A stretch of 64,000 bases of DNA from Torpedo marmorata (lineage: Eukaryota). Positions 14,476 to 64,000 of this stretch are shown here, piece by piece. The notes under the pieces are model-generated. The model had not been told where the DNA came from. It did no database searches and saw only the letters and a program-made list of their open reading frames with translations. Positions within the stretch are counted from its first letter, which is position 1, and every line of letters begins with the position of its first letter. The stretch lies in NCBI GenBank assembly GCA_977017645.1, contig OZ360221.1, forward strand, positions 115,754,001 to 115,818,000. Direction: 5' to 3'. The translations under genes and the position numbers were made by a program.

Positions 14476-15440
14476 CTTTCTTTTTCAATCTTTTTTATTG
14501 ATTTTTATAAGAAATACAATAAAATGAAGAAAAGGGAACAAAATTGAAAATACAATATCACATATGTACATATATTAAAATAAGACTTCAAACAGTATAA
14601 ATTCGATTCCCCCTCCACTGCAATAGGTGACAATGAAAAAAAACATCAAAAGTATTATATATTTTTTTTTAAAAACATACCTAACCTACTCTAATAAAAA
14701 AAAAACAACTAACAAAAAATAGCTGAGCAGCTTATCCTGAAGGTTATATATATTTTGTAATTTTTGGTTCCTACCGTAAATCAAAACACAAAGGAAGAGT
14801 AAATACATCTAATCACATTAGAAACACTTACATCATATGAAAATAAGACATAAGAGGTCGCCATGCATCTTCAAATTTCACCGATGAATCAAATACATGA
14901 TATCTAATGTTTTCCAAGCTTAAACAAGACATAATATGAGAAAACCATTGAAACACTGTTGGAGGTCTAGAGTCTTTCCATTTGAATAGGATGGCTCTTC
15001 CAGCCAACAATGTAGAGAAGACCACAACCCGTTGAACAGGTACAGAAAAACTCCCTATGTCTGGGTCAATAACCCCGAAAAGAGCAGTTATTGGATTGGG
15101 TCGTAGCTCCACCTGGAGTATAGTTGAAAAGATATTAAAAATTTCTTTCCAATAGTTTTCAAAGGATGAACAAGACCAAAACATATGTGTCAATGTAGCA
15201 ATTTCAGATTTGTCATAAATAGGGTTAATATTAGAAAAACTACTAGCCAATTTATCTTTGAACATGTGAACATGATGCACCACTTTGAATTGGATTAATG
15301 AATGACGGGCACATAGAGAAGATGTGTTTACCAATTTAAAAATCTTGTCCCAGAGATCCTCAGATAAGGGTCTGCAAGTTCCAATTCCCAAGCCTTTTTA
15401 ATCTTATCATGAAGTACTGGATGTAATTTTAATAATCTAT

Positions 15441-15830
15441 TGTAGCCACGTGCTACTCGAAAGAAGACACACACACGTAGTGTCGTCAGGTTAAGCTCTG
15501 TGTTTATTAGGGCTCAAGCCCGACTTTTATATTAACACAGTTCCCGCCGTGGCCTCCTTTTACTGATGTCACTTTATACATAACAAAAGCGGGTTTCCCG
15601 CATGTGGGTACTTTCCTGCATAACAATACCTTCTTCCCCGCACGCTGACCCTGTCTGTTGGCTGTGCAGCAAGGCCAGCACCATTTTGGGGTCACTGGCC
15701 TTTGAGCTGCCTTTGCCGTTTACCTGCCGGTTCGCTTGTTGGGGCCAGTGCTGCTGCGCGGGCTGCTGGCCTTTAGTTGCGCTCACCGCCCTGAGAGCCG
15801 GCTCGATCGCCGCCGCGGCAGGCCGCCACA
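15441..15830 (-). repeat. 3' LTR (390 bp)
   Basis: TGT...ACA direct repeat of 19619-20008, preceded on the minus strand by the G-rich PPT (ggttctggggggggtca). Confidence 0.95.
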
Positions 15831-15849
15831 TGACCCCCCCCAGAACCGG

Positions 15850-18800: not shown

Positions 18801-18912
18801 GCTCCTGTGTCCACGAGGAAGTGTCGTCCGGATGGCGGTCCTAAACGTACAGGAGGCTGTCTTGGTGGCCAGCCGATGTGGCCATCAGCGACGGCTGGCC
18901 CTGGCATTTCCC
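15850..18912 (-). pseudogene. pol: Gypsy pol (PR-RT-RNaseH-IN), disrupted
   Basis: Domains are spread over several frames (ORFs 18416-19147, 17334-18659, 16920-17249, 16182-16706). There is an in-frame TAG at 18841-18843 and an inversion at 17342-17415. Confidence 0.88.
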
Positions 18913-19577
18913 TGAAATGTGCATGGTGGCCTGCACCGGCGGGATCCGACGCCCCATCTCTGGTGGTAGAAACACCACTGGTCGTCTGGATCGCCTCCTC
19001 TGGGGCGCTGCTGTTCTTTCGGTGGCTCTGCCCGGGTCTGGCTGCGGGGTTTAGTGAAGAGGCCCATGGACGCCGAGCACTCTCTCTTCTGTTTCCACAG
19101 AATGACCGCTCGTGCTGCGATTTTCCGTGGGTCGCTGAAATCCTCATCAGCCAGGAGTAGTTGGATGCCCTCGTGCAGTTGCTCCAGGAATGCCTGCTCG
19201 AACATAATGCAGGGCTCGTGTTTACCCAGGAGGGCCAGCATCTCGTTCATGAGGGCTGACGGGGGCCTGTCCCCTAAACCGTCCAGTTGGAGCAGACATG
19301 CCCCTCTCTCGTGCCGTGAGAGCCCGAAGGTCTCAATCAGCAAGTCCTTGAAGGCTGTGTACGCGCCTTCCGATGCGGGCTCCTGAATGAAGTTGGCTAC
19401 CTGTCCTGCTGTGTCCTGGTCCAGGGTGCTCACCACGTGGTAGTACCGGGTGGATTCTGCTGTGATCTGCCGGATCTGAAACTGTGCCTCAGCCTGGTCA
19501 AACCACACGCATGGTTGTTTCATCCAGAAATTCGGCAGCTTGAGAGCGACCGCGTTGACTCCTGCCTGTTCGCTCAT
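18885..19577 (-). CDS. gag: Gypsy gag (230 aa, open)
   Basis: Starts LKLPNFW...WFDQAEAQF and has a C-terminal C-x2-H-x9-C-x3-C motif (CFYHQRWGVGSRRCRPPC). Confidence 0.8.
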   Translation of the reverse strand: MSEQAGVNAVALKLPNFWMKQPCVWFDQAEAQFQIRQITAESTRYYHVVSTLDQDTAGQVANFIQEPASEGAYTAFKDLLIETFGLSRHERGACLLQLDGLGDRPPSALMNEMLALLGKHEPCIMFEQAFLEQLHEGIQLLLADEDFSDPRKIAARAVILWKQKRECSASMGLFTKPRSQTRAEPPKEQQRPRGGDPDDQWCFYHQRWGVGSRRCRPPCTFQGNARASRR

Positions 19578-19602
19578 CGCTGGGTTTAGATGCCGTCTAA
19601 AC

Positions 19603-19616
19603 CGTCGGGGTCACCA
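19603..19616 (-). promoter_or_regulatory. Primer-binding site, tRNA-Trp
   Basis: TGGTGACCCCGACG begins 2 nt after the 5' LTR and matches the tRNA-Trp PBS also used by avian sarcoma/leukosis viruses. Confidence 0.85.
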
Positions 19617-19618
19617 AT

Positions 19619-20008
19619 TGTAGCCGCACGCTACTCAAAAGAAGACACACACACGTAGTGTAGTCAGGTTAAGCTCTGTGTTTATTAGGGCTCAAGCCCG
19701 ACTTTTATATTAACACAGTTCCCGCCGTGGCCTCCTTTTACTGATGTCACTTTATACATAACAAAAGCGGGTTTCCCGCACGCGGGTACTTTCCTGCATA
19801 ACAATACCTTCTTCCCCGTGTGCTGTCTCTGTCTGTTGGCTGTGCAGCAAGGCCAGCGCCATTTTGGGGTCGCTGGCCTTTGAGCTGCCTTTGCCGTTTA
19901 CCTGCTGGTTCGCTTGTTGGGGCCAGTGCCGCTGCGCGGGCTGCTGGCCTTTAATTGCGCTCGCCGCCCAGAGAGCCGGCTCGATCGCCGCCGCGGCGGG
20001 CCGTCACA
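19619..20008 (-). repeat. 5' LTR (390 bp)
   Basis: Direct repeat of 15441-15830 with about 21 substitutions by manual count and no indels. Confidence 0.95.
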
Positions 20009-43239: not shown

Positions 43240-43702
43240 CTGAACTAGAACTGCTGGTCTTTTGCTTGGCATTTTGGCGTGTTTCTTTCATCCAAGGGAA
43301 TATTTGTTTACTAATGGTGGTTTGTGAGGTAAGTGTGGGATTTTTGCTTGTGCTGGATTGATTTGAGTTGCTGCTGGTATTTTGTGGTGGGGATACAGAT
43401 GGTGGGGGTAGGGGTGGGGGTGGTGGAGGTGGTGGCTGTTTCTGTTGCTCTGCAATAACTGGGAGATGGCTCGCTTGGTTGGCACTGGTTCGCATGCAAC
43501 TTTCATTCATTTCATTGGGCTTGTGATGAGGGACAGTGCTAGCAGGTGACTGCAGAGAGCAGGCAGGCCGGTGATAGTCATTTTCCACATGGGATGAAGG
43601 CGGATATTGTTGCTGATTGGCATTGTAGTTAAAACCATTTGCTCCTTGGTATGTGTAACCACCGAAAATTGCAGAGCTGTCGTAGTATGTTGCTTTTTGC
43701 AT
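43240..43702 (-). CDS. HOXA3: HoxA3 coding exon 1
   Basis: ATG at 43702 gives [16 protein letters not shown], a poly-Pro tract and KQIFPWMKE, with donor TCAG|gtatat. Confidence 0.97.
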
Positions 43703-43835
43703 CTCGTTGCTTCCCAATATTTATTTCACAAACTGACAGGGTCTTGACACCCTTTTCGAATAACATTGGCACCCGGTATCACGTGACTCTTCTTCCAATG
43801 GCCTCTTCGGGTAGACCTAGGGTTACAAGAAACAA
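43703..43835 (-). promoter_or_regulatory. Conserved HoxA3 leader: splice acceptor at 43817/43816, CCAAT box and E-box
   Basis: tttgtttcttgtaaccctag|GTC acceptor, ATTGG, GTCACGTGA and the conserved Hox3 leader GTGTCAAGACCCTGTCAG...AAATAAATATTGGG. Confidence 0.7.
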
Positions 43836-46800
43836 AACCATAATGGTGAAATGATACAAATCCATCTTACTCTCAATAGCAGCTGACATCAAAAGCCATA
43901 AAAGAAAAAGTGTGCAGCAATATTTGGTCACACAGCTTGGCCCTGGGCATTCCAAGAATAACAGCGGTTTAAACTGACTCTCAGCACTAAATGTTTAGTG
44001 TGGATAAGAACCAAACTCAGTTTCTACAGATTCCGGCTTCTTGGTTTATTTTGTCTGGTTATGAACACACCATACAACATATGATTTCATATGAAATCTG
44101 GATTTCGGTAGGTTGAGCTGGAAGCAGCATTTTTCTCCAGTAGTTAAGAGGAATAACAGCTTATCAATATTTTTTACAACCACTGGTTATTCAATGTTAT
44201 TGATTTGTTATGACTTATTATCTCCCTATATCTGTTTAAATTGGTCAGTTTTACATGTGTGATTCATTAATTAAGCAGACATATTGAAATAAATTCACAC
44301 TGATGTTGGAATCACTTGACTCATTTGTTTTAAAAAATGAAACTGAACGACAGGAGCTTTTGCAGCATAAACTTTCCAGCAAGAAAAATACAAAAGGCAA
44401 ACTCTTTGTTTGGCAAAATTTAATTTATTCTTACGATTAAACTGATAAATTTCAAGTTAATTGCCGGCCAAGTAGTGAATATAGCCTTTTATATAACATT
44501 TTAAAAACTATTAGCAGACGTTGTCGCAGACCCTATTTCAGTTCTCGCCAACATTGGGAACATTTGGATCGATGGACATTAATTATATTTATCCTTTTCT
44601 AGAGAGGAGCTTCGTTTTAAAATAATATTTCCGACATTCTTAAACCTGGCGCGTTAGACAAGAATTTCAGTATGTTCCCTCCACTGAGTGCATTGTTTTC
44701 CAAATAATTTAACTCGTGTTTGTTTTTACTCTCCTGATTTGCCCGGACTGGCGAGGAGAAATGTCATGCTTTTTGTTGGTTCCACTTTTAACGGCTCACC
44801 ATTTGGTCTGGCGGAAAATTTCAAGCCTTCTTTTTTACTGTTTGAATTCTACCTGTTAAACGCATGATGGATCGGAAAGCGCCAGGAACCTGAAAAACTG
44901 GCGTTCTTCTTCATGACCACGGTGTGAACCTTTCTTCCAACCAAACGATAATAGGCTCTGTCTCTGAAACTGCCCGTAATTTGATGTATGGGGGTCAGTA
45001 GGCCGGGAGGAGAGCTGGAAACCCAGCCCACAAAGAGTGCCTGCATCACGAGAACGCGGCAGTAAACAACTCACTTCAAATCTTTCAGTTAATTATTATT
45101 TTCCTAAAAATACAACGGTGCCCGTGGCTAAAAAATAATTCTCACCTCTCGCATGGAATAAATTGATAGTGCTGAATTATTTTCGCGTCGGTTATACAAA
45201 GCTTGGCGTGGCCTGCAGATCACCATTTAATTTAGAAATAATATTGGGATGCTTGGTCACGAATGAGGTCTTTCTGTAGGCTAAGGTATGTAAGGATCGC
45301 TGTTTATATTTGAGTATAATTTTCAGCACGAATTTAGTGTATATAGAAAACCATTGTTTCCTCTGGCTTTCTTTGCCTCAGACGCTCTTAATACAAAGAG
45401 AGTCTGTTTGAAAAGTAAACAAAAAACTGCAGATTATGAAAATCTGAAATAAAACAGAAAATGCTGGAAATGTCCAGCAGACCAATCTGAGACCATTATA
45501 AAACAGTTCAAGCTCCCAGCAAACAGATATACACCGTACACGTTCAAAACAATCATTTCGAAATGTTTTTCCCCCCTGCGCTTTGTACAATGTATTGAGC
45601 GGCCAAACACAGATGAACTGCATGGCCCTTTTATATTTTTGCACATCTCTGTATTGCTATAACACATATTTCGCGGCAGTTTAGTCAATTTGACCTAAAC
45701 GTGCAGATGTCTTCAAGCCCGCTGCAATTTCTTCAGATCTATTAATGAAAACGAAACTGCTGAGATCGGCGGGCAAGGACAAAAATGTGCTAAGTATAGG
45801 TTTTAAATAACACTTCTTGTGTGTTTCTGAACATGGACGTTTCAAACACCAGATCATGCTTTTGAAAGATAAGTTTAACCTCTTGTCTTAAGAACGAATC
45901 AACTACCAGCAGCAGCACTTCATGGCCCCAATGTATTTAAAATATTGAAACCATAAAATAGCGGTAGCCTGAAACCCAAGCCCAGCGATACATTGTGGGA
46001 GCTAGTGATCACAGAACTGTTGAGTTATTGGGTTTTAATGTTAAGAAGTTGTTATTAATTTGCATTATTTCCAGCTCTTACGTATCATCAAAATTACTTA
46101 CAAGAACATAAAAATAAGCCAGCAAGGAAAGGTTGCGACATTTATTTTTTATGAAAACTATTTCATAGAAACCTTGTGAGAGGCTGCTTAAACATCAACA
46201 ATGTCTTTTGGTTTCTCGGCCCTGAGTAGCGTCCGCCATTTTCCTTGAAGCAATGAACAAAACTTTACTCACCTGTGTAAACGCTATGGATTTAATTATA
46301 TATGATTACACTCAGCAACACTTCAATATTTTTCAAAACAAATTTTCTTCCATTTATATTTGTGAAGCAAATAATTTAATCTTGTATTACGATTCGTTTT
46401 CATTTTGTTTATATGTTTGAGTGAAGGGACGGTTTGTATCTGGAATCCAACACTTTGCACAGATCATACTGCATATTGACGTGTGTGCATGTATATTAAC
46501 TACTCTTTGAACAAAATATGTCTTTTGAAGTAACATACAGGGTTTATCCAATAACCCTTCCAGCAAGTTAGAAAGTACCACAAGCCTTTTATAATGAATG
46601 TTACAGGCAAGACCAAGCTAGGCATAATGCAAGTAAAAATGACACAGCAACAGCTATCTGCGTTCTCTGCATCACTAAGGTTAAAGGTAGAAAGGTTGAA
46701 AAGGAAAGCACTGGAACTCAGATTCTAACAGGAACAACAGTATGGGTGTCTAGCTAAATATGTGGTGGTGTGCCTTAGGCGGAATTCTAGGCAATAATAA

Positions 46801-46941
46801 ATTCATAAAACTTCGAAAATACAGAGGGAAATAGCTCAAAGAAACCAATCAAGGGCGAACGAGAAGCAGAACACTGAAATAAAAGAGTTGAATTAGAAGC
46901 CTACGGGTATCAGTCACAATATGAAAGGAAACTATAGCATG

Positions 46942-46986
46942 TGAACTTTTCTTGAACCGAGATTTAAGTCATATGGTCATAAATCA
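46942..46986 (-). promoter_or_regulatory. Hox3-paralog DR5 RARE with adjacent Hox/Pbx site
   Basis: Minus strand GGTTCA-agaaa-AGTTCA (46958-46942) and TGATTTATGA (46986-46977). It matches the DR5 conserved upstream of vertebrate group-3 genes (GGTTCA-agaag-AGTTCA, recalled). Confidence 0.85.
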
Positions 46987-47954
46987 CTGGGACATAAACT
47001 CCGCCATTCACGAGTGATAGCCTGTTTGTGTCCAGCTTACCTTAGTCTCTGACGATAGACGCAGACCCCGGCACAATATTTTCAGATTCACCGGGGAAAT
47101 CGATAAGCAGGAGTTTCAAAACTTCGGAATTAATTGGAATGAAGACAAACAATTACTTTTATACGCTGAAATTCACTCGTTGGCGACAACGGCGAATGGG
47201 GAAAGGAAAATGGTAGAGCAGCGAAAAAACTGGAGAGAAGGCTCCAGCTTTTGGATGGTCACCCTTGTGATTATGGTAGCGCGCCCTGGTCAGGGAGATA
47301 AGACTACTATCAGCCTCCCTGGCAGCTCTTATCTAATACCAAAGAAATGGGGTATGTTTCTTATGAATATTGAATGCTAAAAGCGCGGATTTTAAGTTTG
47401 CTGTCTGGCAGTATTGAATAGACAGGCTGGGTAAACTCCCCCGAAACATAGCGTCACAAGTGAAAAATTATGCAAATTAACGAACACGGAGAACACTAGC
47501 GCCTGGGTTTGGCAATTACTGTATTGAATCTATGCAATCAAACTTAAAACGAGCTTGTCCCATTTATATCAGTGCACTTTTTTAAATAATCAGCCAGATC
47601 ATAACAGAACTTTACATGCTTTAAATATGCACAACCTTTCGCATTAAAAGTGCTAGCATAACTTTTATTAACTCCTTGTTGCAAAGAAAGGCCTTTGTTT
47701 GAAGTACAACGTGAGACTAGATAGGAGGAAATACGGCGCAAGGGTGAAAGTACAACCAGTTTTAAACAGGTTCAGTTGATTTTAAAGCTTATCCTGTTTG
47801 ATTTAGTATTGCCGAATTTAAAAGTGCTAAAATAAAAAGTATTTCAGCTATAGCAGTGAAAAGTTACACTCCGGAAGAAAAATAACGAAGGGACGAAGGC
47901 GAGCAATGAAAAAGTATATGAGCTATAGTCACCCCCTTATGCATACCAATGCTT

Positions 47955-48210
47955 CTGTCGTTTATGGCTACGTAAGATTTATGACTTCATGCACTAAGGC
48001 TGTAAACAGAGCACTAAAGAGAAAACACTTGCCCCTATCGCTTATTGCGATGCAACTACATGAAAGGGGAAGCCAAGCAGCGTAGGAGGGAAGATAGGGC
48101 CAAAAATTCACTCGTATGCAACTTTACAAGTAAGCCGCTCAATGTTTTTCTGTAGTGAAGTGCTTTATTGTCAATGATCAGCCCGTCCACTTATCTTAAT
48201 GTGCTGACTC
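47955..48210. promoter_or_regulatory. HoxA3 r5/r6 enhancer (MafB/kreisler and Hox-Pbx autoregulatory sites)
   Basis: Minus TCATAAATCT at 47984-47975, minus TGATCATTGACAA at 48180-48168, and an AT-flanked half-MARE ttaatgTGCTGAC at 48202-48208. The site set resembles the mouse/chick Hoxa3 enhancer. Confidence 0.65.
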
Positions 48211-51200
48211 CAAGTTTTTCTTTTCTCATGAGATCGTACAAAGGTGAAAAAATAGTAACGCCAACGGATGCTGGATTTTTTTTAACTTTCTGCCACTTAA
48301 TTTGGCTCCGTGAATTTCAATTCGGAAGCCACCGACTAGAAATTGAAGGCCCCGCTTATATCAGCGAACCTCGTAAAACCACTGTTGTTAATGGTAGAGA
48401 ACTAACATTGAATACGAAACATGAACCATTAGCTTTTTAGTCAGTGCAAAAATTTACAAAAGGAAAGTAAATGGAGAGTCGGAGATGAAAGTAGCGACCG
48501 CTTGATTTGAAATAAGCGATAGGTGCTAATTTGTTTTAACAAAATGCTGATATCATTTATTGCAACCATTATAATTTCCATGTCGCATTTACCTTGCTCG
48601 AAATTCTAAGATATAAACTAAAAATATTACATATTATCAATGACCTAATGCTTGGATAATGTTACCTACTATGTCATAGCATGCATTTTACAACCTATAA
48701 TATATGTGAAATGTGACTTCCTCTCTAACGTATATGTTTCTGGATTTTATTGATATACCGAAGCACACGTGATTTAAATTATAACAGCCTATTGCGGTTC
48801 ATTTACTAGAAGTTCAACACTATCCGCCGCTTGGATGGGAGCTAATATATGCGACACCTTGCAATTAGAACATTTCGGATTCTTAACAGGCCATCTATAT
48901 TTTTAGATATCATAAAAGTTTAGAAAACTTACCGAATGTTTGTACAGTCTCAGCCTTTGCTTGTGGAAATGTTATTTCGGACAAAGTCTGCAATGAAATC
49001 GAGACACCATTACTTTCCACGTTATAGAAAGAAAAGCGCCGGGGAGTTAAAACCCTCGTTCAAGAACATCGACAAATTCTACATGAATTATTAACGGACA
49101 GAAACCAACCTAACATCTTGAATCAATTATATGAAGCTACAATGTTCCAATCAATAAGAAAATAACGTTCAAAATGTTAGGATCTTCTTGAATATTGAAC
49201 GGACTTTTTCCAAGTAAAGCATTTACCATGATCAAGTCTTGTAGATCTTCTGCCCGTTATCGCTAATAACGTATTTTATGTATGCATGTCTTTCCAAAAA
49301 GCATCTGTACTAACCTAAACTCTAATTGTTCTTTAATCATGTAAAACATAGTAAAACTGTATTATTTGTTTCAGCCATGTTAAATTTGCTTCAAGATTAG
49401 ATAGTGGATAAGAAAGTAACTGTAATTGAACTGCAATTAAATCTTTTACACCTTTATGATTTTTTGTCAAGTGTTTGCATTTAATATCGGGTTGAGAGTG
49501 TTGCAATAAAAACGGCAGATGGAACACATCAATTGAACTGAACAAATAAAATCGTGCTTTCAGATTTAAAAAAATGCCAACTACGGCAATGACCACTGCA
49601 TGCACATGGTACGTTGTGTGGCATTATTGTTTGCAAAGTCATGATAGTCGTCAAATCATGATAGTCTTCTACTATTCATTTAAAATCGCTTAGCATTGAA
49701 TAGATCCCAGAAACGAACTTTACTCATTGGCGATTTTTTTAAACATCACTACCCACCTCCCACTCTCCTCAACCCATGAAATCCCTCACACCCATCCCAC
49801 TTTACATTTGGCTTAATTTTGCACGATTGGTAGAATTACTGTAGGATACTGATCTAGCTATCAATAATTGCCAATGTGATTTGTCATACATAAAAAGAAG
49901 TAAAGCATTCGTTAAAGAAGATTGCATTGACATGGCTGTCCCAGCACACCAAAAACATAAATCAAATCGCAGCACCCTGACCTTTTCTGAGCAGGACTCA
50001 CTGGTGGATGCAATTTTTTATAACATTTGCACCTCCAGCATAACATAACGCATCTTTTCCTGCTTTTGTTCATCGCGCATGTATTCTTTAAAAAATGGCA
50101 GTGTTGGTTTAGGTTGCATCATCTCTTAGTTTATTTCGTTAACTTCTTCATACAGTCAATATTCCGTCGCGATGACGGCCTGCTGTAAATAATCCCCCGA
50201 TAGAACTTGCTTCATACCTTGCGTTAATCAAACATTACCACCCTGATGATAAGGCAAATGTAGCAATGTTTTTTCGATCAACCATTGAAGAGCTTACTTT
50301 TTTCTTTGTTTTTCATGAAATCACAGTGCTACGTACAGCGAAATAGAAAATTCAATGCTCATTCATTAAGTGTTGTGATTCATTCCGATTTCGACAATTC
50401 ACACATATTAAGGATACCCCCCAGCAACGTAATTTCAAGGAGACAACAATTCTCAAACTAGCTGACAGGATTTTTAAAATGGACGATGAACCTTTCATTG
50501 GAGCTTGTTATATAATGAATAAAATGTTAGAATAAGTAAACCTACATTAATGCCCATGTGTTATAATAATAACTTTATTAATGGCTATTCTAGCCAGATA
50601 TATTGGCGTCGAATAAGGTATGATAAACATACATTGTTTTGTTTGTACCTATTCGGACGGAGAGCGGCCATTGACAGGATTTCAATATTCGATTGTTCAT
50701 GTTTTAAGGAACACAAACATGTGATCCGCACACTATTCTACAAAATAACTTTTTTTGTATTTACCATATGGAGAGAAAAAAATTACTGGCATGGATTATT
50801 CGCAGAAACAAACAAAAAATATGAAACTAAGCGTGCTCTGCCACAATATGACACCCGTAAGCCTTTCCACTGACCTTTGCCTTGAACAGCAATAACTCAC
50901 CATATTAATGAACAATCAACGGAAGCATTTGAAATACCTCAAAATAAAATCCATTCCGCTAAATGCAGCATCTCTCCCTGCTCGGATATATCCCTTCATG
51001 TGAAATCCAGCGCTCAGGGTGCAATCTCTTTGGAAGAAAATAGCTGGCTCTTAACAGAAAGTGGAAAAGCGTAATCACAGCCGAAGCCAGGCTAGGTCTC
51101 CGATCCAAATGCCACAATAATGCGCTGTATTATGTGCTCACGTGGTCATACGTCAACTTAAATCCTTTTATTTGAATTTGGAATATAATTAAAGGAATGT

Positions 51201-52833: not shown

Positions 52834-55800
52834 TCGGGACATGGGCGAGGTCAAATATTCGGCGCGGAAAAGTGAAGCAGGAGGAATTCATCCAAGCAAT
52901 GAATTCCCTCCAAGCTCATGTTGTTAGATGTTTTCCGATATCAGAATCTATTTCCATTGTAGGGATGTCACAAGCGACTTTTAAAAATATAAAATGTCAC
53001 CTTAAAAGATTCTAGAACATCACTTTTATCAACGCGTGCATTGTAACGAATAGGGATTGCAAATAAAGGGGCCTTCGGGCTTGACGATAAACAATGACTT
53101 CCCTTTCCTTAGGTCAAGTTTTAAGCCATCAATTACTAACTGGACTGGAATTTATCCTCTGTGCAGATAGACAGAGCTAAAAGAAATCTTATAGCTTACC
53201 TGACAATTCAGCCAAATCCAAACCAGCCTCAAAGGACAGATAAAGACTGCTGTGAAATTGATAATGTGCTTTACAGGGGGAAAGTTTCAATGCACACTGA
53301 AGATCCTACATTTTCGAAGTTATCCGGCTCTTTTTAATATGTTGCTCTGTGTTTGCTCCAGGCACATTTCCTTTCCGCAGACCTTTCTCAAAACAGAAAG
53401 GCCGGAGAATGAAGTTAGTCCCCTCACACTGATTCCACGTCCTGCAAGTGCTGAACTGTTTCCCTTCTAGGTTTCTGCAGCTGTCTGGGGTACTCGTTTT
53501 CTGTGAGATCTATGTATTAGAGAAAGAGGGAGAGAAAAAAAAGAGCCGGCAAACAAGCAGGGCCAAGCCAAAGTAAAAAAAAACCTTATGGAATCCGTTC
53601 ACGTGACTTAAAAATAATTGTTAGCAGAATCTGGATTAAATCTGGTTATTAACCGCAATACAATAAAGTTTCTGTGATTCATCGTCAGGCTAGTATGCTT
53701 GCAAACTGCCATTGCATTTATGCGATGTTGATTTAGGAAACAGCTGCACCAGAATTGAAGTCCCAATGCATTACTAAGGTAAGAGTGAAGCCTTGTAACA
53801 TGCAGAGTAAATGGGATTGCATTCCAAGCACCAACCACCGCCATACATTCATTGCTTCTTCAAAATAAAACAACTGTTTAGATGATAGTAATTTAAAAAT
53901 GTGAAACTTCGGAGAAATTTTATTGCATTGAAATCGCATAATAGGTCTCTGTTTGCTTCAAAACCAAACTATTTTGAACGAACATATTAGATAACAAAAT
54001 AACAGATAAACTGGAATTTCATACACATTTTGTTTATCCACATAAAGCTGGGTGAACGCGCGAAAATGTATAAAAAGAACGTTCTAACAAACGAGATATC
54101 CAAATAAAACAATAGCATTTGGTCCATTCTAACTGGTGTGAGCTTTGAAGGGAAGGTCTCTAAATATAAAGCACCTAAGTATCAATAAAATTCTGCTTGC
54201 TTTTATTTTAAGAGTGTCATATAAGAAACTAATTTCTCCATGCGGGTGCAATTGACAAACCCATCACAACAAAGCATTACGCTCGTGTAATTTATTGTAC
54301 CCCTCATTCCACACTACTCCAGTTATCAAACGACAGCTTAAACTAACCAGAAAATTTGAGTTTTCTTGTTACTTCTAAACTGGTAAAAGTCTGGCAACAC
54401 TATTTACTCGACTTACTGCGGGCTCCTTTATTACCATTAATACATTCGATTTTAAAGGGTCAACGGGTAGATACAAGATGCCTTTGCCGTTTTATCCCAA
54501 TCAATTCCTTTCTTGTGGATCTTTATTGCAAGCAGCCTCTTTAAAAAAATAAAATATAAACACGATTTCCCATTTTACGTGCTATTGAAAAATATCACAC
54601 CCCGGACGAGTATTATTGTTTCTGCAATCACAATGTTCTAATTCGAGGCGACCGTTAATGAATATTTACTTTTAAACTTTGTGGATCTCTTGCCTCTGAT
54701 GAACTGCAATTCAAATCGGAAATTCGGCGTATTTAGATATTTACATAAAATTGAAAAACAAGGGAAACGGAAATAGGCAGTGATGCTTCGATTTCCTTGT
54801 AAAACGGGTAATAATTAAACAAAGAAACATGGTGGTATTTTCAACCCCTTTCACTGCATGCTGTTGAATATAGCTGGGAAGTCGCGTGTTCGCTCCGATA
54901 AATTAGTGCAAATGAAATGGCTTGCTTCCTAACTTAAAAACATTGATTTTAGAGAGCTTTGCAATGGAGTAACATTAGGACCATAGAGAAAATGAAGAGG
55001 TAGTGCATAAAGCACTTTTATTTAACATGAAAAGGAACATAACTGCCCTGCGCAATTACAATTAGATTAGCTTTCCCTACCAATGTTGCTTCTGAAAATA
55101 TTGGAAATATAAATTATATTTAATAGTATCTCGAAGTTAGTTTTCCTGTAAATAGCCAGAGTTGTTGTACTTTTGATTTTACTCTGGGATTTTTAAAATA
55201 AATCAAGTTGTATGGTTGTGGCTCTAGTGAATTCTTTAAGGTTGCTGTGAACCCAAAACAAAGGAAGTACCCAAGGCTTTTGTTCCCTCAACTAAACACC
55301 AAAATGACACTCTTAAATGGCTCCATGACTACCTTTTGCGACTGGGCAATACATTTTAACATGGAAGGACTCAGCTCTGCGGAGAGCACACAACCTCTCG
55401 TCTTATAACAGAGTTTGAAAAATAAATGACATTTTCATTTAGTGTCCACTGATTCCGATGAAGTGCAGCACCAAACCACCTGTTAAATAAAATGAGTCTA
55501 CCTGAAACGAGATAAGGGATTTCAGCACTGCAAGTAATACATTTTTACCTCATAACTTCAGGCTCTAGCCCATCTCAAAGTCCAATTTGGTTATCCTGAA
55601 GCTAGTCTTGTTTCTGATGGAGAGCTCCAGATCTGAAAGAAGCATTTGTTGTTAAATTAAAGAATCGTGTATCGGTTGCCAAATAGTAACTCATTATATG
55701 GTTGTGCTGTTCTAATTTTAGGAGGTGGATCCAATTACAGAAGTGTTTTATTGGAATGCCAGGCCGGAAGTTCCAGCATTCTACCAGCCGGTATACTGTT

Positions 55801-58234
55801 GTAATTATCTTGTTTTGATTGATCATAACGAACAGTAGGAATAATAAAATATACTTGACTGGAGCGATAAGACATTTAATTAAGTGCTATGTACTTTTAC
55901 TAATGATCTTTTATTGTAAATATTAGGATCAGCACTTGATTATGAGTGCAAACAAATACACGTTTTATGAATGTCCTTTCGCCAGGTAACATCATCAAAG
56001 CTATCCATTAAATAAGAACAAGATTATTGAAAAGAATGAATGCATTCTCTCACGTGGACAAATTACGTCCACATAAGTTTAGAACTTGTTCGAACATCGG
56101 ATTGCAATAAATGAATAAAATATTTGAAAAATAGCAGGGTCAGAAATTTATGGTAAAATATGTTAAAGGCAGGTGCTTATTTACAACCCTTTAGTCTTAT
56201 ATGTATTGTCCAGTTCATGGTTGCACATTATATCTAGACACGTCAGGCAGTATACAGTTAGAATAAGTACTCCACTTTGTTCAGAATTACATATGTTAGT
56301 ACATTTGCTGGAGCACCATAACTCTGTCATTTATTGTAAATCGCTCAAATTAATGAATCATAGAGGAATTTAGCTGATACCTCTTCATTTCCAAAAGCTT
56401 CTGCCTACAGTTGCCTTTCAGTCCTGCGCATGCAAGAGATAGTGATTTATTAACGACAGGAAAATTGAACAAAGCAGCACAGCTACACCGTGGTATCCAG
56501 GCATACATACTGTGAACTAGAACATCATCATATGTGTTTGTATTTGTTGCAATTAATCATGAAAAAATCTAAAATATTACTGACACGCGAAAGACTGACT
56601 AAACACCATCACAGACATGCCGTGATTTAAATCTGAATACTAAAGGGCGCTATTCATCACATTTATGACAGTTTTAAGAAATAAAAAAAATCTTAAAACA
56701 TAAACAGAAAAAAGGACGGATCATAAAGACACTACTTACCAGAATTCTTAGCTGATTTGAGCCACTTCACTTTCTGAGACTGATCTTCCAATTATAGACT
56801 TATTTTTAAAGGAAAGTTCATTTTCACAGCAGACTGAAACCGATCTAGTGCGAATACTGACGACTACATATCTATTCCGGACTGGCTGCATTAATTATTT
56901 AATGAGTCACGTGACGAGAGAGATTAAAATTTCAATACATACACGGAGAAGACTCGTGACCCTTTATCTTGGAGTGTGGAGTTTTCTTTCTCTCTTTGCG
57001 CCCTTCTTGCTTGAATCTTTTTTGTTCGCGCTCTCTTTTAGTCTATGGATGCTCACTGGTAAGTTATAATGCAAAATGAGTGGCCTGTGCTGATCCCAGA
57101 TTTGACAGGTCCGCCATTTATGTCACCTACATTTTGAGCTGCCTCAGTCCAATATTCCTGGGCACTTCTTCAAGCTGCCTTCATTGTCCGCCTGACAGGT
57201 TGATATTGAAGCCAGTGTTACAGTACCCCGCATACATAAAAGTCACATGGAAGTCTAACTCTTTCATATGTGATTTTACATCCCATAAGGCTGTTAAATT
57301 TGACACCGAATCGACCCTCACTAGCCACAGTCGATATTTTATTATATAACCCAAAATATGTACTGGGTTTTAAATTATGTCTGGAGTTCTTCGGGACTCT
57401 ACGATTACTACAGTGCACAGAATAGTTATTTCAAATGTGACAATGAACATTATGCTTCAAAAACAGTCGAGTTAATTATAGCCCCAGCACATTTAATAGT
57501 TGGTGACAATTTTTATTGCTATTCTAGTTATGCTTTCAACTCAGATCGTACTGTCCTGAGTCCTTTATGATCATACACGATTTACATCCTTTTACATGTT
57601 TCGAATGAAGAAATATTTGTAATCATTTTATTAAATTACCATTAACTCTCTAAAATTTGGCTGCAAATTGCCCTGGGTGCCAATATAGTATCAGGACGGT
57701 AAACGCATGTTTAGTTTTTTTTTAAAGTATGAGTTATTCTCTTCAATAATCGGAACAATGGAGTACTCTCACGATTGTAAATGAAAGATTGGATCCATTC
57801 TCTAAAGCCATTAACTGCAAAAGTGTTATTAACTAAACTATTCAAAACAACCATTGCTTCTTATCACGTGGAACTTTCCAAGCTTGGAAATAAATCTTCG
57901 ATATTTTTTTCTTGACATAAGCACACGCCACACACTTAAAACTTTAGGTTTTATATATATCTCTGTGTGCGTGTATCCATGTTTGCGTGCATATGTGTCC
58001 CTGGGTGCGTGTGTGTCAGTGAGCATTCGCGTGTGCGTAATATTAAATATCGCCCTATACTTAAAAATAAATGTAATACATATTGTTTAGACATTTATGA
58101 TAATGGACTGTATTCCTTTGGTTCTTATCTGCGGGTATAGGAAATAGTGGAAAGAGCACTGTCCATCTTTTAAAGGTCAAGGGTTTGAGAGGGTCAGTCT
58201 GCAACGCTAAAAATGGCTAATCGGTCAGAAAATT

Positions 58235-58251
58235 TGTCCTCTTGCTGAACT
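58235..58251 (-). promoter_or_regulatory. Hox4 3' DR5 RARE (early neural enhancer type)
   Basis: Minus strand AGTTCA-gcaag-AGGACA, about 2.5 kb 3' of the HoxA4 stop. It has the same half-sites as Hoxa4/Hoxd4 3' RAREs ((A/G)GTTCA-n5-AGGACA). Confidence 0.8.
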
Positions 58252-60736
58252 CACTCTGGTTGCCCAGCCGTTGACAAACAATGCAACTTTTTATTACAAA
58301 AGACCGTTCGATTTACAATAAACTAAAAACATCAAAGAGAAAGAAAAAAAGATTGCAAACGGCGTTTCATGTGCTAAAGGCACTTAAAGTTTTGGTCATA
58401 TAAAATATGAGCTATAATCAGCTTGCACTTTCCAAAACTGTTTTTACATGTTGTAAATTATTGTTCGCCTTTGAAAATATGTGTTTTATAATTTCCTGTT
58501 GTAATAAACGTGGTCTAGCTAAAGCTCCACAACTGTTCCAAGAGTGAAGGGAGGGGGAGCACGGTGTGTGTCGAGATGGCCACATTTTATTCAAGAGATC
58601 CAATGTGTTCATACACTTTTCTAAAAGAACACCCTTCAGAGTTGCTGTTGAAGTACACAAAGAGGTATTTATTGAATGAGGTGATTAATGATTCTGGGTA
58701 AAATCTGTTATTTTCAATCTGTTTAAAATTCCTTTTACAGATAAGCAAGCACGGTTGTCTAATGGATGAAGTTTCTCATCGCTTTTTTTGCCTTTTTAAA
58801 ATTCGTCTGCAGTGGTCGTAAAGCTATTTTACAAAGCCATATTTTTATAAAATTTATGTTTGACATGAGCACTAGCTGCTTCCAATTCCTTAAAAAACAA
58901 CGTGCTTTGACAGATTGCGGCAAAATGCATCTTTAAAAGAAGTTTCAAATGTCAAATTGTATATATTTTTGTTCAATTCCTGGCAAACATTCTGTCTACT
59001 TTATTTATGATAAATATTTGCATAACTACAGTCTTCCAATTTGTAGACAAAATAAATTTGGGAGGAAATGCATCTAACATGATTATTACGTTTCCCTCAC
59101 CACTCACGTAACGCATTCTGCACATTGATATTGTTTGTTCTCATTATCTACATAATTTGCAGAGAAAAATAAAAATAGAGAAGGACATGTTGTTGTGTGA
59201 ATTTTAACCATTGTTATGACAAAAGCATGTATCCAAATCTATATCAGGGTTTGAAGAACGCGTCGTTTGTTATACAAAAATGTTCCCAGTACGCTGTTTT
59301 TTTAGAATCTCTAATATCTGTGTTATCAAACAGAAAATATAATCGAGCAGATGAGATTGTCATAATATTAAAAATCTTCAGCTACGTCTTTGTGTTTAAC
59401 AAATTAACAAAATTGTGTCAGTGTAAATATTCGCTTATTTACTCCCGCAATTTCTGTTTTCCTTGCCAGATAGAACAGATATAATTGTAAATACTGTTCG
59501 TGTTTTTAAAGTTAAAATCTCTCTGATCCAAGAATGTAAAGTCAACCTAAAATAATTTCACATGATTACACTTCCTTCCAGGATCAGAGGTTTAACAATT
59601 AGGGCTATAAAATACCTTATTCGCCACCTTGCAGATGACTTATTATTTGATAGCCTCACATTTTACTGCATTATTTACGACCTAGTGACGTAGAACTTGA
59701 TGTGGAAAGACTGTAGAAAGATGAATTATAGATTCAGATAACAATTTATCCTTTTTCGCTGCTATTCTTTGAAATAACACGATATTTTTTGCTTTTTTTT
59801 CAGAAAGCTGCATTTTTTTAGCTCACCAATGTGATCAAAATAAAAATCACTTCAATGTTTTGGAGGGGAAGGAATTCCTTGCTTCCGTGTGTTTATTAAA
59901 TCCTGACTGCAAGAAAATTGTACACATAAGAACTGAAATGGTCCACGAATTAACGTTTTATTTAAAGCCCGGGGCTTTGTTTTACACTGTAAATTATGTC
60001 TTTCGTCTTCGCAACATTTGGCACTGCACATAGCACACTGAAATATCCACAGAAAATACACAAACCTTACCAATGATTTGTACAGTTTCGTCACTCTTGG
60101 ACTGTACCAAAATTATTAAATATACAACAACTTGTCTGAAATCTCTGAATAAGCTCCTTGCGCGTTCGTTATACTGATATCAGTACCACAACTATATAGA
60201 GGATACAGATTTAAAATAAAGAATACACCTTAAATAACGCTGGCGACATAATTTATTTCCTATATATGTAGCATCTGAACAGTTTATTCGCTCTACAATC
60301 CATTTCCACATCCACAAATATTGCTGCCTTTCTCATTTCTAAAACATGTTTATTCTTATATTCTCACAATATTTTCAACAGACTACACTAGTTGAAATGA
60401 TGACGCTTTACAGTTCCTCGCAATATCTATTATTCACGGTCCTTTGCTCTTTTTGCTTTGAATATCATGATAGAAACCACTTTGACAGAAGTTAGCATCG
60501 GTTCATGTGGGGGTAATGAAGGATACAGAATGTACCCAATCAAACATAAAACATTTTAAAAGTCTGCTGAGAATGGGTTAACACAATAGAAATGCTTGAC
60601 CCTAATGAGGTTAACAGCATATCTCCTGGAAGAAAATTCTCGTTACAAGAAATCCTTCCCCATTCAAGTCAATTATGTGGCAAACACATTTTGGTCCAAA
60701 CTATGTTGTGGGAGAGGGGTTGGAGACTCGAAGCAG

Positions 60737-61062
60737 CTATAGGCTTGATGAATTTGGTGCTGAACCATCTGGCTGTGGGCCCTGGGAGGATACTTGTGTT
60801 TGCTGGCTTGCAGAAGATGATGAGCTAGCAGAACGCATCTTAGTGTTAGGCAGTTTGTGATCTTTCTTCCATTTCATTCTTCTGTTCTGAAACCAGATCT
60901 TCACCTGGCGTTCAGACAGGCAAAGAGTGTGTGCAATCTCAATGCGTCGACGCCTGGTTAGGTAACGGTTAAAATGGAACTCCTTCTCCAGCTCTAATAC
61001 TTGTTGTCTGGTGTAAGCAGTTCGAGACCGTTTGGGCTCTCCTCCAGTGTAATTTGGGTTCA
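60737..61062 (-). CDS. HOXA4: HoxA4 exon 2 (homeodomain)
   Basis: Acceptor tttgttcag|TG, then [78 protein letters not shown]. The joined CDS is 744 nt (247 aa). Confidence 0.97.
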
Positions 61063-61271
61063 CTGAACAAAAAAAAAAGTAACCAAACATAAATACAGAG
61101 ACAGGCACGAATCTGACAATGGGATTAGATGCACGTGAATGAAGGTTATAAAAGTCTAGAGTTTTTGTCACAGTGTAATGACAACGGAGAACAATCTACT
61201 GCAATAAAATGGCTCTGGGTGTTTAGGTTAGAAAAGCATCAAAGACACATGGCCAGAAGCAAGATCCAGGG

Positions 61272-61299
61272 CAATCAAATTTATAGGCTCTGTAATTAC
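61272..61299 (-). promoter_or_regulatory. Hox4 intronic HB-1 homeodomain-binding element
   Basis: Minus strand GTAATTACAgagccTATAAATTTGATTG, the TAATTA...ATAAA cluster conserved in group-4 introns. Confidence 0.65.
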
Positions 61300-61412
61300 C
61301 GACCTAACAGTTAGGTGATCGTAAATCTCATGAAAGGGCGAGTTACAGAAAGCGTTCCGCACATCCGATTTCAAGTGAATTTTAATTGTTTCAGTTAGCT
61401 TTAGTTACTTAC

Positions 61413-61830
61413 CGGTAGTAACGTGAATTTTCTTCATCCACGGGTAAACTATGGGCTCTTTGCTGAGAGTACCCTTCTGGGCCGTGGGATTTTTCGCATT
61501 TTGGCTACACAAAGCTGGTGTGGCTACTGGGACCACTTCACAAAGCTGGTTCTGCCTCGGTATGTGATTTTGGAGGCGAGCCTGCGACTGCATATGACCC
61601 CTTTGCGACATGTCTTGGTTGCCAGTGCCTTGGACATTGTTGAAGCTGTAGGTCGGCTCTGGGTAGTTTGATTGTGGGTATAGTGCCTCATGATGGAATC
61701 CAGTGTCCCGCGGCCGCTCGTAGTATTCAGGAGATTGGCTTGGTATGTAGTTATTTTGAGAATATTCCTCACAAGGTGGAAATTTTGGCTCAACGTAGTT
61801 GGAGTTTATCAAAAACGAACTCATGGTCAT
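61413..61830 (-). CDS. HOXA4: HoxA4 exon 1
   Basis: MTMSSFLINSNYVEPKFPPCEEY (EP is A4-type) and KEPIVYPWMKKIHV, with donor ACCG|gtaagt. Confidence 0.97.
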
Positions 61831-61955
61831 TAATTTCTGAAGTGCAAAATACTAATTTTTCTCGCGTTGTCGTTTTTCTGTTCCATAAAACCCTCCTACT
61901 TGCTGTCAAGTGTATAAAGTTAGCTGTTCATGTGATGTAACCAGCCAATGGGATG
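61831..61955 (-). promoter_or_regulatory. Conserved HoxA4 promoter/5' UTR
   Basis: CCAAT at 61945-61949, TGACAG, TTTATGG and the group-4 leader GAGAAAAATTAGTATTTTGCACTTCAGAAATTAATG. Confidence 0.65.
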
Positions 61956-64000
61956 AGTGACTGTGGGTCCCGGATAAGGAAATACACCAATGATGAATGC
62001 ATGGAGTCCAGTGAAAAATTCCATATTATCATTCAAAATCTCGTTTCTTCGAAATTGTGTTGCCGCATTGAAAGGAAAAGAAAAACTCTGGACTAATCAA
62101 GATAAAAAGCTAATTGTGAAATCATTTAAAATATTCAATAGAATTACGATATTTTATCGAAAACAGATATTTCAGAGTGTGCGTTAACGGGGACAAGATC
62201 ACAAGATAGTATCAACAGCGCTCTGATAATGTCTGAAACAGTTTACTCTTTTTTGAGAATGCGACTCTACAAACATGCTTCACCCATTTATCGGGGGAAA
62301 GTTCAGGGGATTCGTGGAAATAATTACGAGAGTTCATTTGTCCTCACTGCAGTAACCAAGATTCAGTTAATGAAAGAAGAATTCCCATAAAATTCCAAAG
62401 CTACTGGGTTTATTGTCCTAAAAACAACTCAAATCGAACATTTCACTAAAATGTTCAATGAAAAATCACACTCGCTAAGTGTTAGATAACCGAAGAGAAT
62501 GTTGGAAGATAATGTCGAGTTACTTCATGTATATTACAAAATATTATGCAACCAATAGATATTCACACATGGTATCATAATATCTTGTTAAATCAAACTA
62601 TAATTTAATTGTTCGAATTTGAAACATTTTATTTAACATTGTCCTCCGAGCTTATTTTTTTCAAATCTTATTTAATTAAGCTGCATGAAATAAAAGTGAC
62701 TGAAACGAACATTGTATTACTGTAAATGCACAGTAAAGGGGGATAGTGATTGCATTCCTTTTATATAAAATAGCATGCACAAAGCAGAACTGTTCTGTAA
62801 CGCAATTAATTTGAATTGATATTTATTCCAGAGAATTTAATAAACATTGTTAATTTAGTACATCTGAATTTTGAAACAAGTCCTCTTATTTCACCTCCCC
62901 CCCCCCCACCCTACGCATTGCTAATTACTGGGAACATCAATTAAAGAGCAGATGATTATATCACATCATTAAGTCTGCATGAACAAATAAAATCACTTTA
63001 ATACATTTTATATTTATTTAATATTATATTATATTTAATAAATATAGAAATGATTTAAAATAACAGTCGTATTGATGTCACCTTCTCTAATGTTTACTTC
63101 CTTTCTTTTTCAAAAGGCAATAATAACTTGCGCAAAATTCTATAATGTAATGATCTTTTTAGATTAGTTAACCTGATTAAAATTCTACGATGCTTCTTTA
63201 CGAATTCAGATCTATCCCGAATATACGCACTGAGAAGTTCCCTGAACGTGCCAAGTTGGTGCATTGCGCGTTATATTTCCAAAGTAATCACATGCAATAT
63301 GCTTTCGGGACTGCAATGAAAGTGATTCATAACATTCGTTTTTGTCAATAAAGGATGTGATAAAAGCTCTATTTTATTGTTTGGACAATACACTGTATCT
63401 GGACACATTTGCCCACATTTTATTCGAGTGAAATTTTTTCTAGCCTCTGGAACAAGGAGTTAGTAGACTACATTTACCAACCCACCCTGTTTTACAGCGC
63501 AGTGTAATCGTCCATTAGAACGCGTTCAATTAAACATCAGGCTGTAAAATCAATTGACTTTCGGTGTAATTAATAAAAGCTTATTTCCACTGCTTACTAG
63601 ACAAAGAAGCTCTGTAAGATATGACTTAAACAGCAACAATCATATTTTACGCAATTTTATTTCACATACCCCTCGAATAGCTTGTGCAAATGTTTACATT
63701 TAAACAATATAATATTTGTAATGGTACGAAATTAGTTGATCCGAATGATGTGAATAACATTTTACGTTTTGCTCGACAAATTCCTCTTTTACTGAAACAC
63801 AAACTTTAAAAAATAATTGTGCGTCTCTTCCCCCACCCCCCACCCCCCACCCCCTTTTGGTAGGCGCAGTATGCAATGTTTTGCACTGACCAACGAACTT
63901 GCTATTAAATAAAGCAGTCCGCTAATTAGCTCGGGCAATGTCTGTATTTACGTTCTTTGTCGAAAAATAGGGAATTAGAGCTTATCGTATAAACACAGGG

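What the first reader, a model, noticed from the sequence alone, without database searches (positions are those of the whole stretch)
56734..57200. Symmetric bidirectional promoter: palindromic E-box flanked by divergent CTG|GTAAGT donors
Seen: palindrome GTCACGTGAC (56906-56915, overlapping AP-1 TGAGTCA, next to a TAAT cluster). The same consensus donor CTG|GTAAGT lies about 165 nt away on the minus strand (56740/56739) and about 145 nt away on the plus strand (57058/57059). Two TGACAGGT Meis-type sites (57103, 57193) and CCGCCATT follow. Inference: one promoter drives a distal HoxA3 first exon and an antisense RNA running towards HoxA4, positionally like human HOXA-AS2. With the HoxA1 case, this suggests a repeated E-box-centred sense/antisense layout in a cartilaginous-fish cluster.
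Basis: partly seen in the sequence, partly recalled or inferred. Interest (0 to 1): 0.7.

Follow-up and report, generated by a model that had tools for sequence, protein, structure and literature searches.

The report
Ancient upstream promoter of HoxA3
This is a short control element, shared by the HoxA, HoxB and HoxD clusters of this genome, that likely serves as a distant start site and first exon for the Hox3 gene; the proposed opposite-direction RNA is less conserved and untested.

Summary
All motifs are present at the stated coordinates, 4 kb 3' of HoxA4. The element is ancient but polar, not symmetric. Its E-box plus TAAT core recurs at the same place in HoxB and HoxD and in a distant vertebrate HoxD contig. 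Conservation runs only towards Hox3. A Hox-sense donor lies 171-185 nt from the E-box in all four copies, and one relative changes it GTAAGT to GTGAGT, which keeps the consensus. A Pbx-Hox/Meis-type block follows it. The antisense donor exists in HoxA and, unaligned, in HoxB, but not in HoxD. The identical CTG|GTAAGT pair, the AP-1 site, TGACAGGT and CCGCCATT are not kept in the paralogues. Best reading: a distal Hox3 promoter and first exon inside the Hox4 3' neural-enhancer region, a known kind. A spliced antisense RNA is possible (about 0.25) but untested; no transcript evidence was obtained. One lead: the core shares its motif order with the post-Hox5 element that matches the HOXA-AS3/HOXB-AS3 promoter.

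The parts
56886..56915 (-). Core: E-box CACGTG (56908-56913) followed on the Hox-sense strand by two inverted homeodomain-type sites (CATTAAA, TTAATG); likely promoter core
   Evidence: Kept in the HoxB and HoxD copies and in L045; 15 consecutive invariant columns across A, B, D
56792..56918 (-). Block homologous to the HoxB4-HoxB3 element; likely holds the start site and 5' part of a non-coding first exon
   Evidence: 77% over 134 columns to G000:C61:16416349-16416480, E 2e-13 genome-wide; start site itself not mapped
56734..56742 (-). Hox-sense splice donor CTG|GTAAGT (cut 56740/56739), 171 nt from the E-box
   Evidence: HoxB ATT|GTAAGT at 185 (aligned), HoxD TTG|GTAGGT at 184, L045 TGG|GTAGGT at 176; GTGAGT in run X3, GTG| in X1-X4
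56642..56673 (.).
   Evidence: 88% over 34 columns to HoxD; aligned in A, B, D; CTGTCA at +239, +254, +235 in A, B, D; motif names are recalled consensus
57056..57064 (+). Antisense-strand donor-like CTG|GTAAGT (cut 57058/57059); use unproven
   Evidence: Present; HoxB has AAT|GTAAGT at 191-192, not aligned; none in HoxD; lies in the 80-nt stretch too diverged to align in X1-X3
57016..57041 (+). Pyrimidine tract ending in AG, 17 nt before the plus donor (acceptor-like, or a pyrimidine-rich start region)
   Evidence: One of 2 plus-strand acceptor-like sites found in 56900-62000
57073..57355 (.). HoxA-specific flank with TGACAGGT (57103, 57193) and CCGCCATT (57111)
   Evidence: About 91% identical in X1 (25 changes over 283 nt); motifs absent from the HoxB and HoxD copies
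58235..58251 (-). DR5 retinoic-acid response element, paralogue of the Hoxb4 ENE-RARE, 1.3 kb from the E-box towards HoxA4
   Evidence: DR5 at the same place in A, B, D; like the mouse ENE-RARE printed in the supplement of PMC10233718
43702..43818 (-). HoxA3 coding-exon acceptor (AG at 43818-43817) and 5' UTR to the ATG at 43702; predicted target of the donor, directly or through further exons
   Evidence: Pyrimidine tract plus TAG read; ORF; 76% to HoxB3 over 43491-43897
60737..61830 (-). HoxA4 coding exons (upstream neighbour)
   Evidence: ORFs

Best explanation
This is an element conserved at the same place in the HoxA, HoxB and HoxD clusters that likely acts as a one-directional distal promoter and non-coding first exon for Hox3, set inside the Hox4 3' neural-enhancer region. 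Shown: position, paralogy, polarity of conservation, and a conserved Hox-sense donor. Inferred: a USF-type factor binds the E-box; Hox or Cdx proteins bind the adjacent inverted TAAT/TTTA sites; transcription starts on the minus strand a few tens of bases past the core; the exon ends at 56740 and splices, directly or through further exons, to the HoxA3 acceptor at 43817; the Pbx-Hox/Meis block in the intron and the RARE 1.3 kb away supply Hox cross-regulation and retinoid input shared with HoxA4. Some divergent transcription is plausible, but a spliced antisense RNA is not the conserved function.
For: One genome-wide paralogue by DNA search, between HoxB4 and HoxB3, and a third between HoxD4 and HoxD3, 4.0, 5.0 and 4.7 kb from the Hox4 homeobox. 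Local alignment scores of the 250 nt on the Hox-sense side: 89, 38, 34 for A-B, A-D, B-D against shuffle maxima 30, 27, 28; on the antisense side 28, 18, 16 against 25, 25, 24. Hox-sense donor at 171, 185, 184 and 176 nt in 4 of 4 copies examined, in HoxD and L045 as an island of identity in diverged sequence. Consensus-keeping change at donor position +3 in 1 of 4 runs, and no listed change at G, T, +4, +5 or +6 while 56742-56783 carries nine listed changes (only 40 of 186 difference rows were shown). E-boxes sit near the starts of several Hox genes here, and an E-box bound by USF1/2 is the critical site of the HOXB4 promoter (PMC2193192, passages). Multiple promoters are reported for Hoxb3, Hoxd4 and Hoxa5 (PMC2868907, passages).
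Against: No start site or splice junction was shown. The core also reads as a Hox-responsive enhancer, and the conserved TGCAG at 56890-56886 could be an acceptor for an internal 146-nt exon. HoxB does carry an antisense GTAAGT at a similar distance, and the HoxA antisense flank 57073-57355 is about 91% conserved in relatives, so that side is not inert. The primary papers giving the mouse Hoxb3 distal promoter and CR3 sequences were not held, so identity with them rests on position and recall.
Confidence: 0.58

Rival explanations
1. True two-way promoter: the same core drives the HoxA3 first exon and a spliced antisense RNA with its first donor at 57058 that runs towards HoxA4.
For: Outward GTAAGT donors flank the E-box in both HoxA (171/149) and HoxB (185/192). 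Such a layout arose in 1 of 200 simulations. CACGTG ranks first of 64 palindromic hexamers for outward GTRAGT pairs, 6 of 95 against 0.76 expected. The post-Hox5 element, matching the described HOXA-AS3/HOXB-AS3 promoter by position and motifs, has a similar core and antisense donors in 3 of 3 clusters. Antisense overlaps with Hoxa3, Hoxb3 and HOXA4 are reported in mammals (PMC1831499).
Against: No antisense donor in HoxD or near it in L045. The A and B antisense donors do not align, and the A-B antisense flank scores 28 here against 70 at the post-Hox5 element. The plus donor lies in the stretch that fails to align in 3 of 4 runs. Held-out cluster sequence shows no enrichment, 1 of 54 against 0.27; the 5 hits in the seen part are 3 ancestral loci, one of them this case.
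Confidence: 0.25
2. Enhancer plus internal exon: the core is a Hox/TALE/bHLH enhancer shared by Hox4 and Hox3, and the donor ends an internal exon of long transcripts that start further 5' (for example at the post-Hox5 promoter), with no start site here.
For: TGCAG is invariant in A, B, D and L045 and could be a 3' splice site giving a 146-nt exon. Long Hoxa3 transcripts from the Hoxa6-Hoxa7 region with an exon between Hoxa5 and Hoxa4 are reported (PMC2868907). A conserved enhancer, CR3, shared by Hoxb4 and Hoxb3 is reported (PMC9680502, passage).
Against: The bases before TGCAG are A-rich, and the acceptor scan did not call it. E-boxes here mark promoter-like places.
Confidence: 0.13
3. A conserved enhancer whose flanking donor-like words are both chance.
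For: GTAAGT occurs 21 times in the window; outward pairs occur in 13 of 200 simulations.
Against: The Hox-sense donor is kept at the same distance in 4 of 4 copies and shows a consensus-keeping change.
Confidence: 0.04

Closest known systems
Hoxb3 distal promoter and the CR3 / late neural enhancer shared by Hoxb4 and Hoxb3 (Sham 1992, Gould 1997: not held, known from citing passages in PMC2868907, PMC9680502, PMC3957373 and from recall); Hoxd4 3' neural enhancer (PMC3185001)
   Same: Lies 3' of Hox4, beyond the ENE-type RARE; conserved; carries TAAT clusters and a Pbx-Hox/Meis-type block; has a Hox-sense donor; HoxB and HoxD copies exist in this genome.
   Different: This is the HoxA paralogue in a likely cartilaginous fish. 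Sequence identity with mouse CR3 or the P1 promoter could not be checked; no activity was measured.
HOXA-AS3 / HOXB-AS3 paralogous promoters (Degani 2021, PMC8330917, passages)
   Same: Intergenic element 3' of a Hox gene, paralogous between clusters, with a pair of inverted CCATAAA/CATTAAA-type sites; in this genome both it and the present element have an E-box 3-4 nt before CATTAAA and donors some 150-240 nt away.
   Different: That element is 3' of Hox5, keeps antisense donors in 3 of 3 clusters and has described antisense RNAs; the present one is 3' of Hox4, keeps only the sense donor throughout, and shows no significant alignment to it outside the core (best E 0.01).
HOXA-AS2 (PMC4805430, PMC8293171, PMC12273044, passages)
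   Same: Antisense RNA from the HOXA3-HOXA4 interval.
   Different: Its start could not be mapped to this element; the review read lists orthologues for primates only. E-boxes at 53599 and 51139 also have outward donors and are equally good positional candidates.
USF-bound E-box (HXRE-2) of the HOXB4 promoter (PMC2193192, passages)
   Same: E-box in a Hox promoter region.
   Different: Different promoter; USF binding here is only inferred.

Membership tests
Distal Hox3 promoter / Hox4 3' neural-enhancer region (Hoxb3 P1, CR3-LNE type) | Lies between Hox4 and Hox3, 3' of the ENE-type DR5 RARE | tested here: met
   RARE 58235-58251, element 1.3 kb further towards HoxA3; same order in HoxB and HoxD
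Distal Hox3 promoter / Hox4 3' neural-enhancer region (Hoxb3 P1, CR3-LNE type) | Sequence conserved across clusters and vertebrates | tested here: met
Distal Hox3 promoter / Hox4 3' neural-enhancer region (Hoxb3 P1, CR3-LNE type) | Hox-sense donor ending a non-coding exon | tested here: met
   Donor in 4 of 4 copies at 171-185 nt; consensus-keeping change; use not shown
Distal Hox3 promoter / Hox4 3' neural-enhancer region (Hoxb3 P1, CR3-LNE type) | Capped start site and splicing to the Hox3 coding exon | tested here: inconclusive
   Only contigs of unproven kind were available
Distal Hox3 promoter / Hox4 3' neural-enhancer region (Hoxb3 P1, CR3-LNE type) | Sequence match to mouse CR3 Hox-binding sites and r6/7 enhancer activity | not testable with these tools
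   Primary papers not held; no mammalian genome on hand
Two-way sense/antisense Hox promoter (HOXA-AS3 type) | Outward donors on both sides of the core | tested here: met
   Met in HoxA and HoxB, absent in HoxD
Two-way sense/antisense Hox promoter (HOXA-AS3 type) | Antisense side and donor conserved across paralogues | tested here: not met
   Scores 28, 18, 16 against shuffle maxima 25, 25, 24; no donor in HoxD or L045
Two-way sense/antisense Hox promoter (HOXA-AS3 type) | Divergent capped start sites and a spliced antisense RNA | not testable with these tools
   No raw stranded reads or CAGE on hand
HOXA-AS2 orthologue | Start site homologous to the human HOXA-AS2 promoter | not testable with these tools
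   No human sequence or coordinates obtained; original paper not held

The most novel reading that the evidence does not exclude
The post-Hox4 element and the post-Hox5 (HOXA-AS3/HOXB-AS3) promoter are serial copies of one ancient module: an E-box, a pair of inverted homeodomain sites and outward first exons, duplicated with the Hox4/Hox5 genes before the vertebrate genome duplications, each driving a long Hox-sense transcript and an antisense RNA. In 444 kb of the three clusters, CACGTG followed after 3-4 nt by a CATTAAA-like word occurs at exactly these six places.
Probability: 0.13. Interest if true: 0.65.

Novelty: new member of a known kind. Interest (0 to 1): 0.32.

Why it matters
As the HoxA copy of a distal Hox3 promoter and shared-enhancer region it is expected biology, though it dates the element and its first-exon donor to before the A/B/D clusters split and pins the invariant bases for mutagenesis. 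If the antisense RNA and the kinship with the post-Hox5 promoter held, intergenic Hox promoters would be a repeated module that couples neighbouring genes, which bears on why vertebrate Hox clusters stay compact.

Tried and rejected
Sequencing runs: no RNA holder listed. Four runs of contigs (three guessed RNA, one of unknown kind; three organisms, three studies) were laid on 55900-58120. Their contigs run colinearly across both donors and list no joint at 56740 or 57058; the kind of run is unproven and contigs drop rare forms, so this says nothing on expression. The link from the donor to the HoxA3 acceptor stays unexamined in reads. Metagenome scans: strict pattern 0 hits; looser pattern 9 loci, of which 8 had no Hox-like flank and were dropped and 1 (L045) was a HoxD-type orthologue. 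Rfam on 52900-64000: 0 matches. The bacterial promoter scan is irrelevant to a vertebrate. AP-1, TGACAGGT and CCGCCATT rejected as core features: absent in the HoxB and HoxD copies. The 10-bp palindrome rejected as essential: HoxD is not palindromic beyond 6 bp. A cluster-wide layout rejected by the held-out test (with the looser donor pattern 3 of 54 against 2.08). Direct homology of the post-Hox4 and post-Hox5 flanks not detected. No HoxC4-like match in the genome search (3 matches), so no fourth copy was examined. Ten literature searches gave no paper that prints this element; six papers sought by id were not held, and these are the ones most likely to describe it, so absence from print is not shown. 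Earlier-findings look-ups by sequence, place and first words were blank.

Full report
Observation. CTGGTAAGT occurs only twice in the 64-kb window, on opposite strands, 171 and about 149 nt from the centre of the only GTCACGTGAC. The window holds HoxA4, A3, A2 and A1 on the minus strand, and the neighbouring contig adds seven more homeoboxes. A 6.2-Gb genome with three Hox4 matches fits a cartilaginous fish; this is inference. In simulations an outward donor pair with an E-box between arose in 1 of 200, with criteria set after the fact.

Paralogues. A genome-wide DNA search found one other match, between HoxB4 and HoxB3. A directed comparison found a third copy between HoxD4 and HoxD3. A metagenome scan gave 9 loci; 8 were unrelated and one, L045, matched the HoxD copy at 83% over 128 columns. 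The invariant core is the E-box followed, on the Hox-sense strand, by TAAATAATTAATGCAG. The element is therefore older than the split of the three clusters.

Polarity. Over 250 nt on the Hox-sense side the three pairs score 89, 38 and 34 against shuffle maxima of 30, 27 and 28; on the antisense side 28, 18 and 16 against 25, 25 and 24. A Hox-sense donor lies at 171 (A), 185 (B, aligned with A), 184 (D) and 176 nt (L045, aligned with D). Beyond it, A, B and D share a block at 56642-56673 with Pbx-Hox-like and Meis-like words (names from recalled consensus). An antisense donor is present in A and, unaligned, in B at 191-192 nt; none lies within 450 nt in D or 400 nt in L045. The AP-1 site, TGACAGGT and CCGCCATT are missing from B and D, and D is not palindromic beyond the hexamer.

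Relatives. Four runs of contigs from three related organisms were laid on 55900-58120. All four change 56742, so the two donors are identical only here. One run changes the minus donor to GTGAGT, which keeps the consensus. In three runs the 80 nt that hold the plus donor are replaced by unlike letters of similar length, so its fate there cannot be read; the flank 57073-57355 is about 91% conserved, which counts for some function on that side in HoxA. Only 40 of 186 difference rows were shown. These data carry no information on expression.

Setting. A DR5 element lies at 58235-58251 with copies at the same place in B and D; it resembles the mouse ENE-RARE (PMC10233718, passages and supplement row), which is said to regulate Hoxb4 and Hoxb3. 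A shared enhancer CR3 for Hoxb4 and Hoxb3 (PMC9680502, passage; PMC3957373, passages), a Hoxd4 3' neural enhancer (PMC3185001, passages) and multiple Hoxb3 promoters (PMC2868907, passages; PMC9456325, passages) are on record. I recall, without a call, that human HOXA3, HOXB3 and HOXD3 each have a non-coding exon a few kb 3' of Hox4 and that HOXA-AS2 starts nearer HOXA3. The primary papers were not held, so identity with P1 or CR3 is by position only. Antisense transcription in this interval is common in mammals (PMC1831499, abstract, passages and first third of the text; PMC8293171, PMC4805430, PMC12273044, PMC8788451, PMC4510006, passages). Supplements of these papers were not read except as noted and might print the element.

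The repeated layout. With outward GTRAGT donors at 100-300 nt, 5 of 41 E-boxes qualify in the anterior parts first examined (0.50 expected) and 1 of 54 in held-out sequence (0.27 expected); overall 6 of 95 against 0.76, the best of 64 palindromic hexamers. The five are three ancestral loci: post-Hox5 (B, D), post-Hox4 (A, B) and HoxA 51139. The post-Hox5 element, 1.5-1.7 kb from the Hox5 homeobox, matches the described HOXA-AS3/HOXB-AS3 promoter by position and by its inverted CATTAAA/CCATAAA pair (PMC8330917, passages) and keeps antisense donors in 3 of 3 clusters. It serves as a positive control that the present element does not equal on its antisense side (A-B score 70 against 28). Yet the two cores share motif order: CACGTG, 3-4 nt, then a CATTAAA-like word occurs at 6 of 196 E-box strands, exactly these six (0.43 expected). 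The pattern was fitted to them and they are two loci, so the real weight is one independent match (about 0.09 expected for the strict word); flanks do not align. An earlier unchecked report on another genome reached a similar view; it is not independent support.

Mechanism and verdict. Most likely (0.58) a polar distal Hox3 promoter and first exon, driven by an E-box factor such as USF (by analogy with HOXB4, PMC2193192, passages) and by Hox or Cdx proteins, inside the retinoid- and Hox-responsive region 3' of Hox4. A two-way promoter with a spliced antisense RNA (0.25), an enhancer with an internal exon (0.13) and chance donors (0.04) follow. Position, paralogy and donor conservation are shown; binding, initiation and splicing are inferred. 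It is a new member of a known kind; interest 0.32.

Noticed in passing
window 58235-58251 (-); also 46942-46958 (-) and 26299-26315 (-): Three DR5 retinoic-acid response elements; the first two have copies at matching places in HoxB and HoxD, and HoxD has a look-alike of the third 3' of HoxD1.
   Followed up: partly
window 51139-51144 and 53599-53606: Two more E-boxes between HoxA4 and HoxA3 with outward donors (241 sense, 131 and 184 antisense; 175 sense, 177 antisense). The first has HoxB and HoxD paralogues, and the HoxB copy keeps the sense donor. Either could be the HOXA-AS2-type promoter.
   Followed up: partly
L014 (G000:C5, 7.8 kb beyond the window end), G000:C61:16398788, G000:C39:101718335: Post-Hox5 element with E-box, inverted CATTAAA/CCATAAA pair and donors on both sides in all three clusters; matches the HOXA-AS3/HOXB-AS3 promoter and may also be the upstream Hox4/miR-10 promoter.
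   Followed up: partly
window 30726 and 30907, donor at 31010-31017 (+): Two E-boxes upstream of HoxA1 with an antisense CAG|GTAAGA donor, placed like HOTAIRM1.
   Followed up: no
window 43780 and G000:C5 beyond the window: E-boxes sit close to the 5' ends of Hox1, 3, 5, 7, 9, 11 and 13 in HoxA, with paralogous copies for several.
   Followed up: no
window 46922-47274, 47909-48033, 50849-50996: Further non-coding blocks conserved between HoxA, HoxB and HoxD in the Hox4-Hox3 interval.
   Followed up: no
window 53199-53509 and 58254-58322 (-): Acceptor-donor pairs that could be further non-coding HoxA3 exons: 53509 to 53427 or 53199, and 58322 to 58254 next to the RARE.
   Followed up: no
window 15000-20000: A 5-kb stretch of 56-61% GC beyond HoxA1, against about 37% in the cluster; possibly a mobile element.
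   Followed up: no
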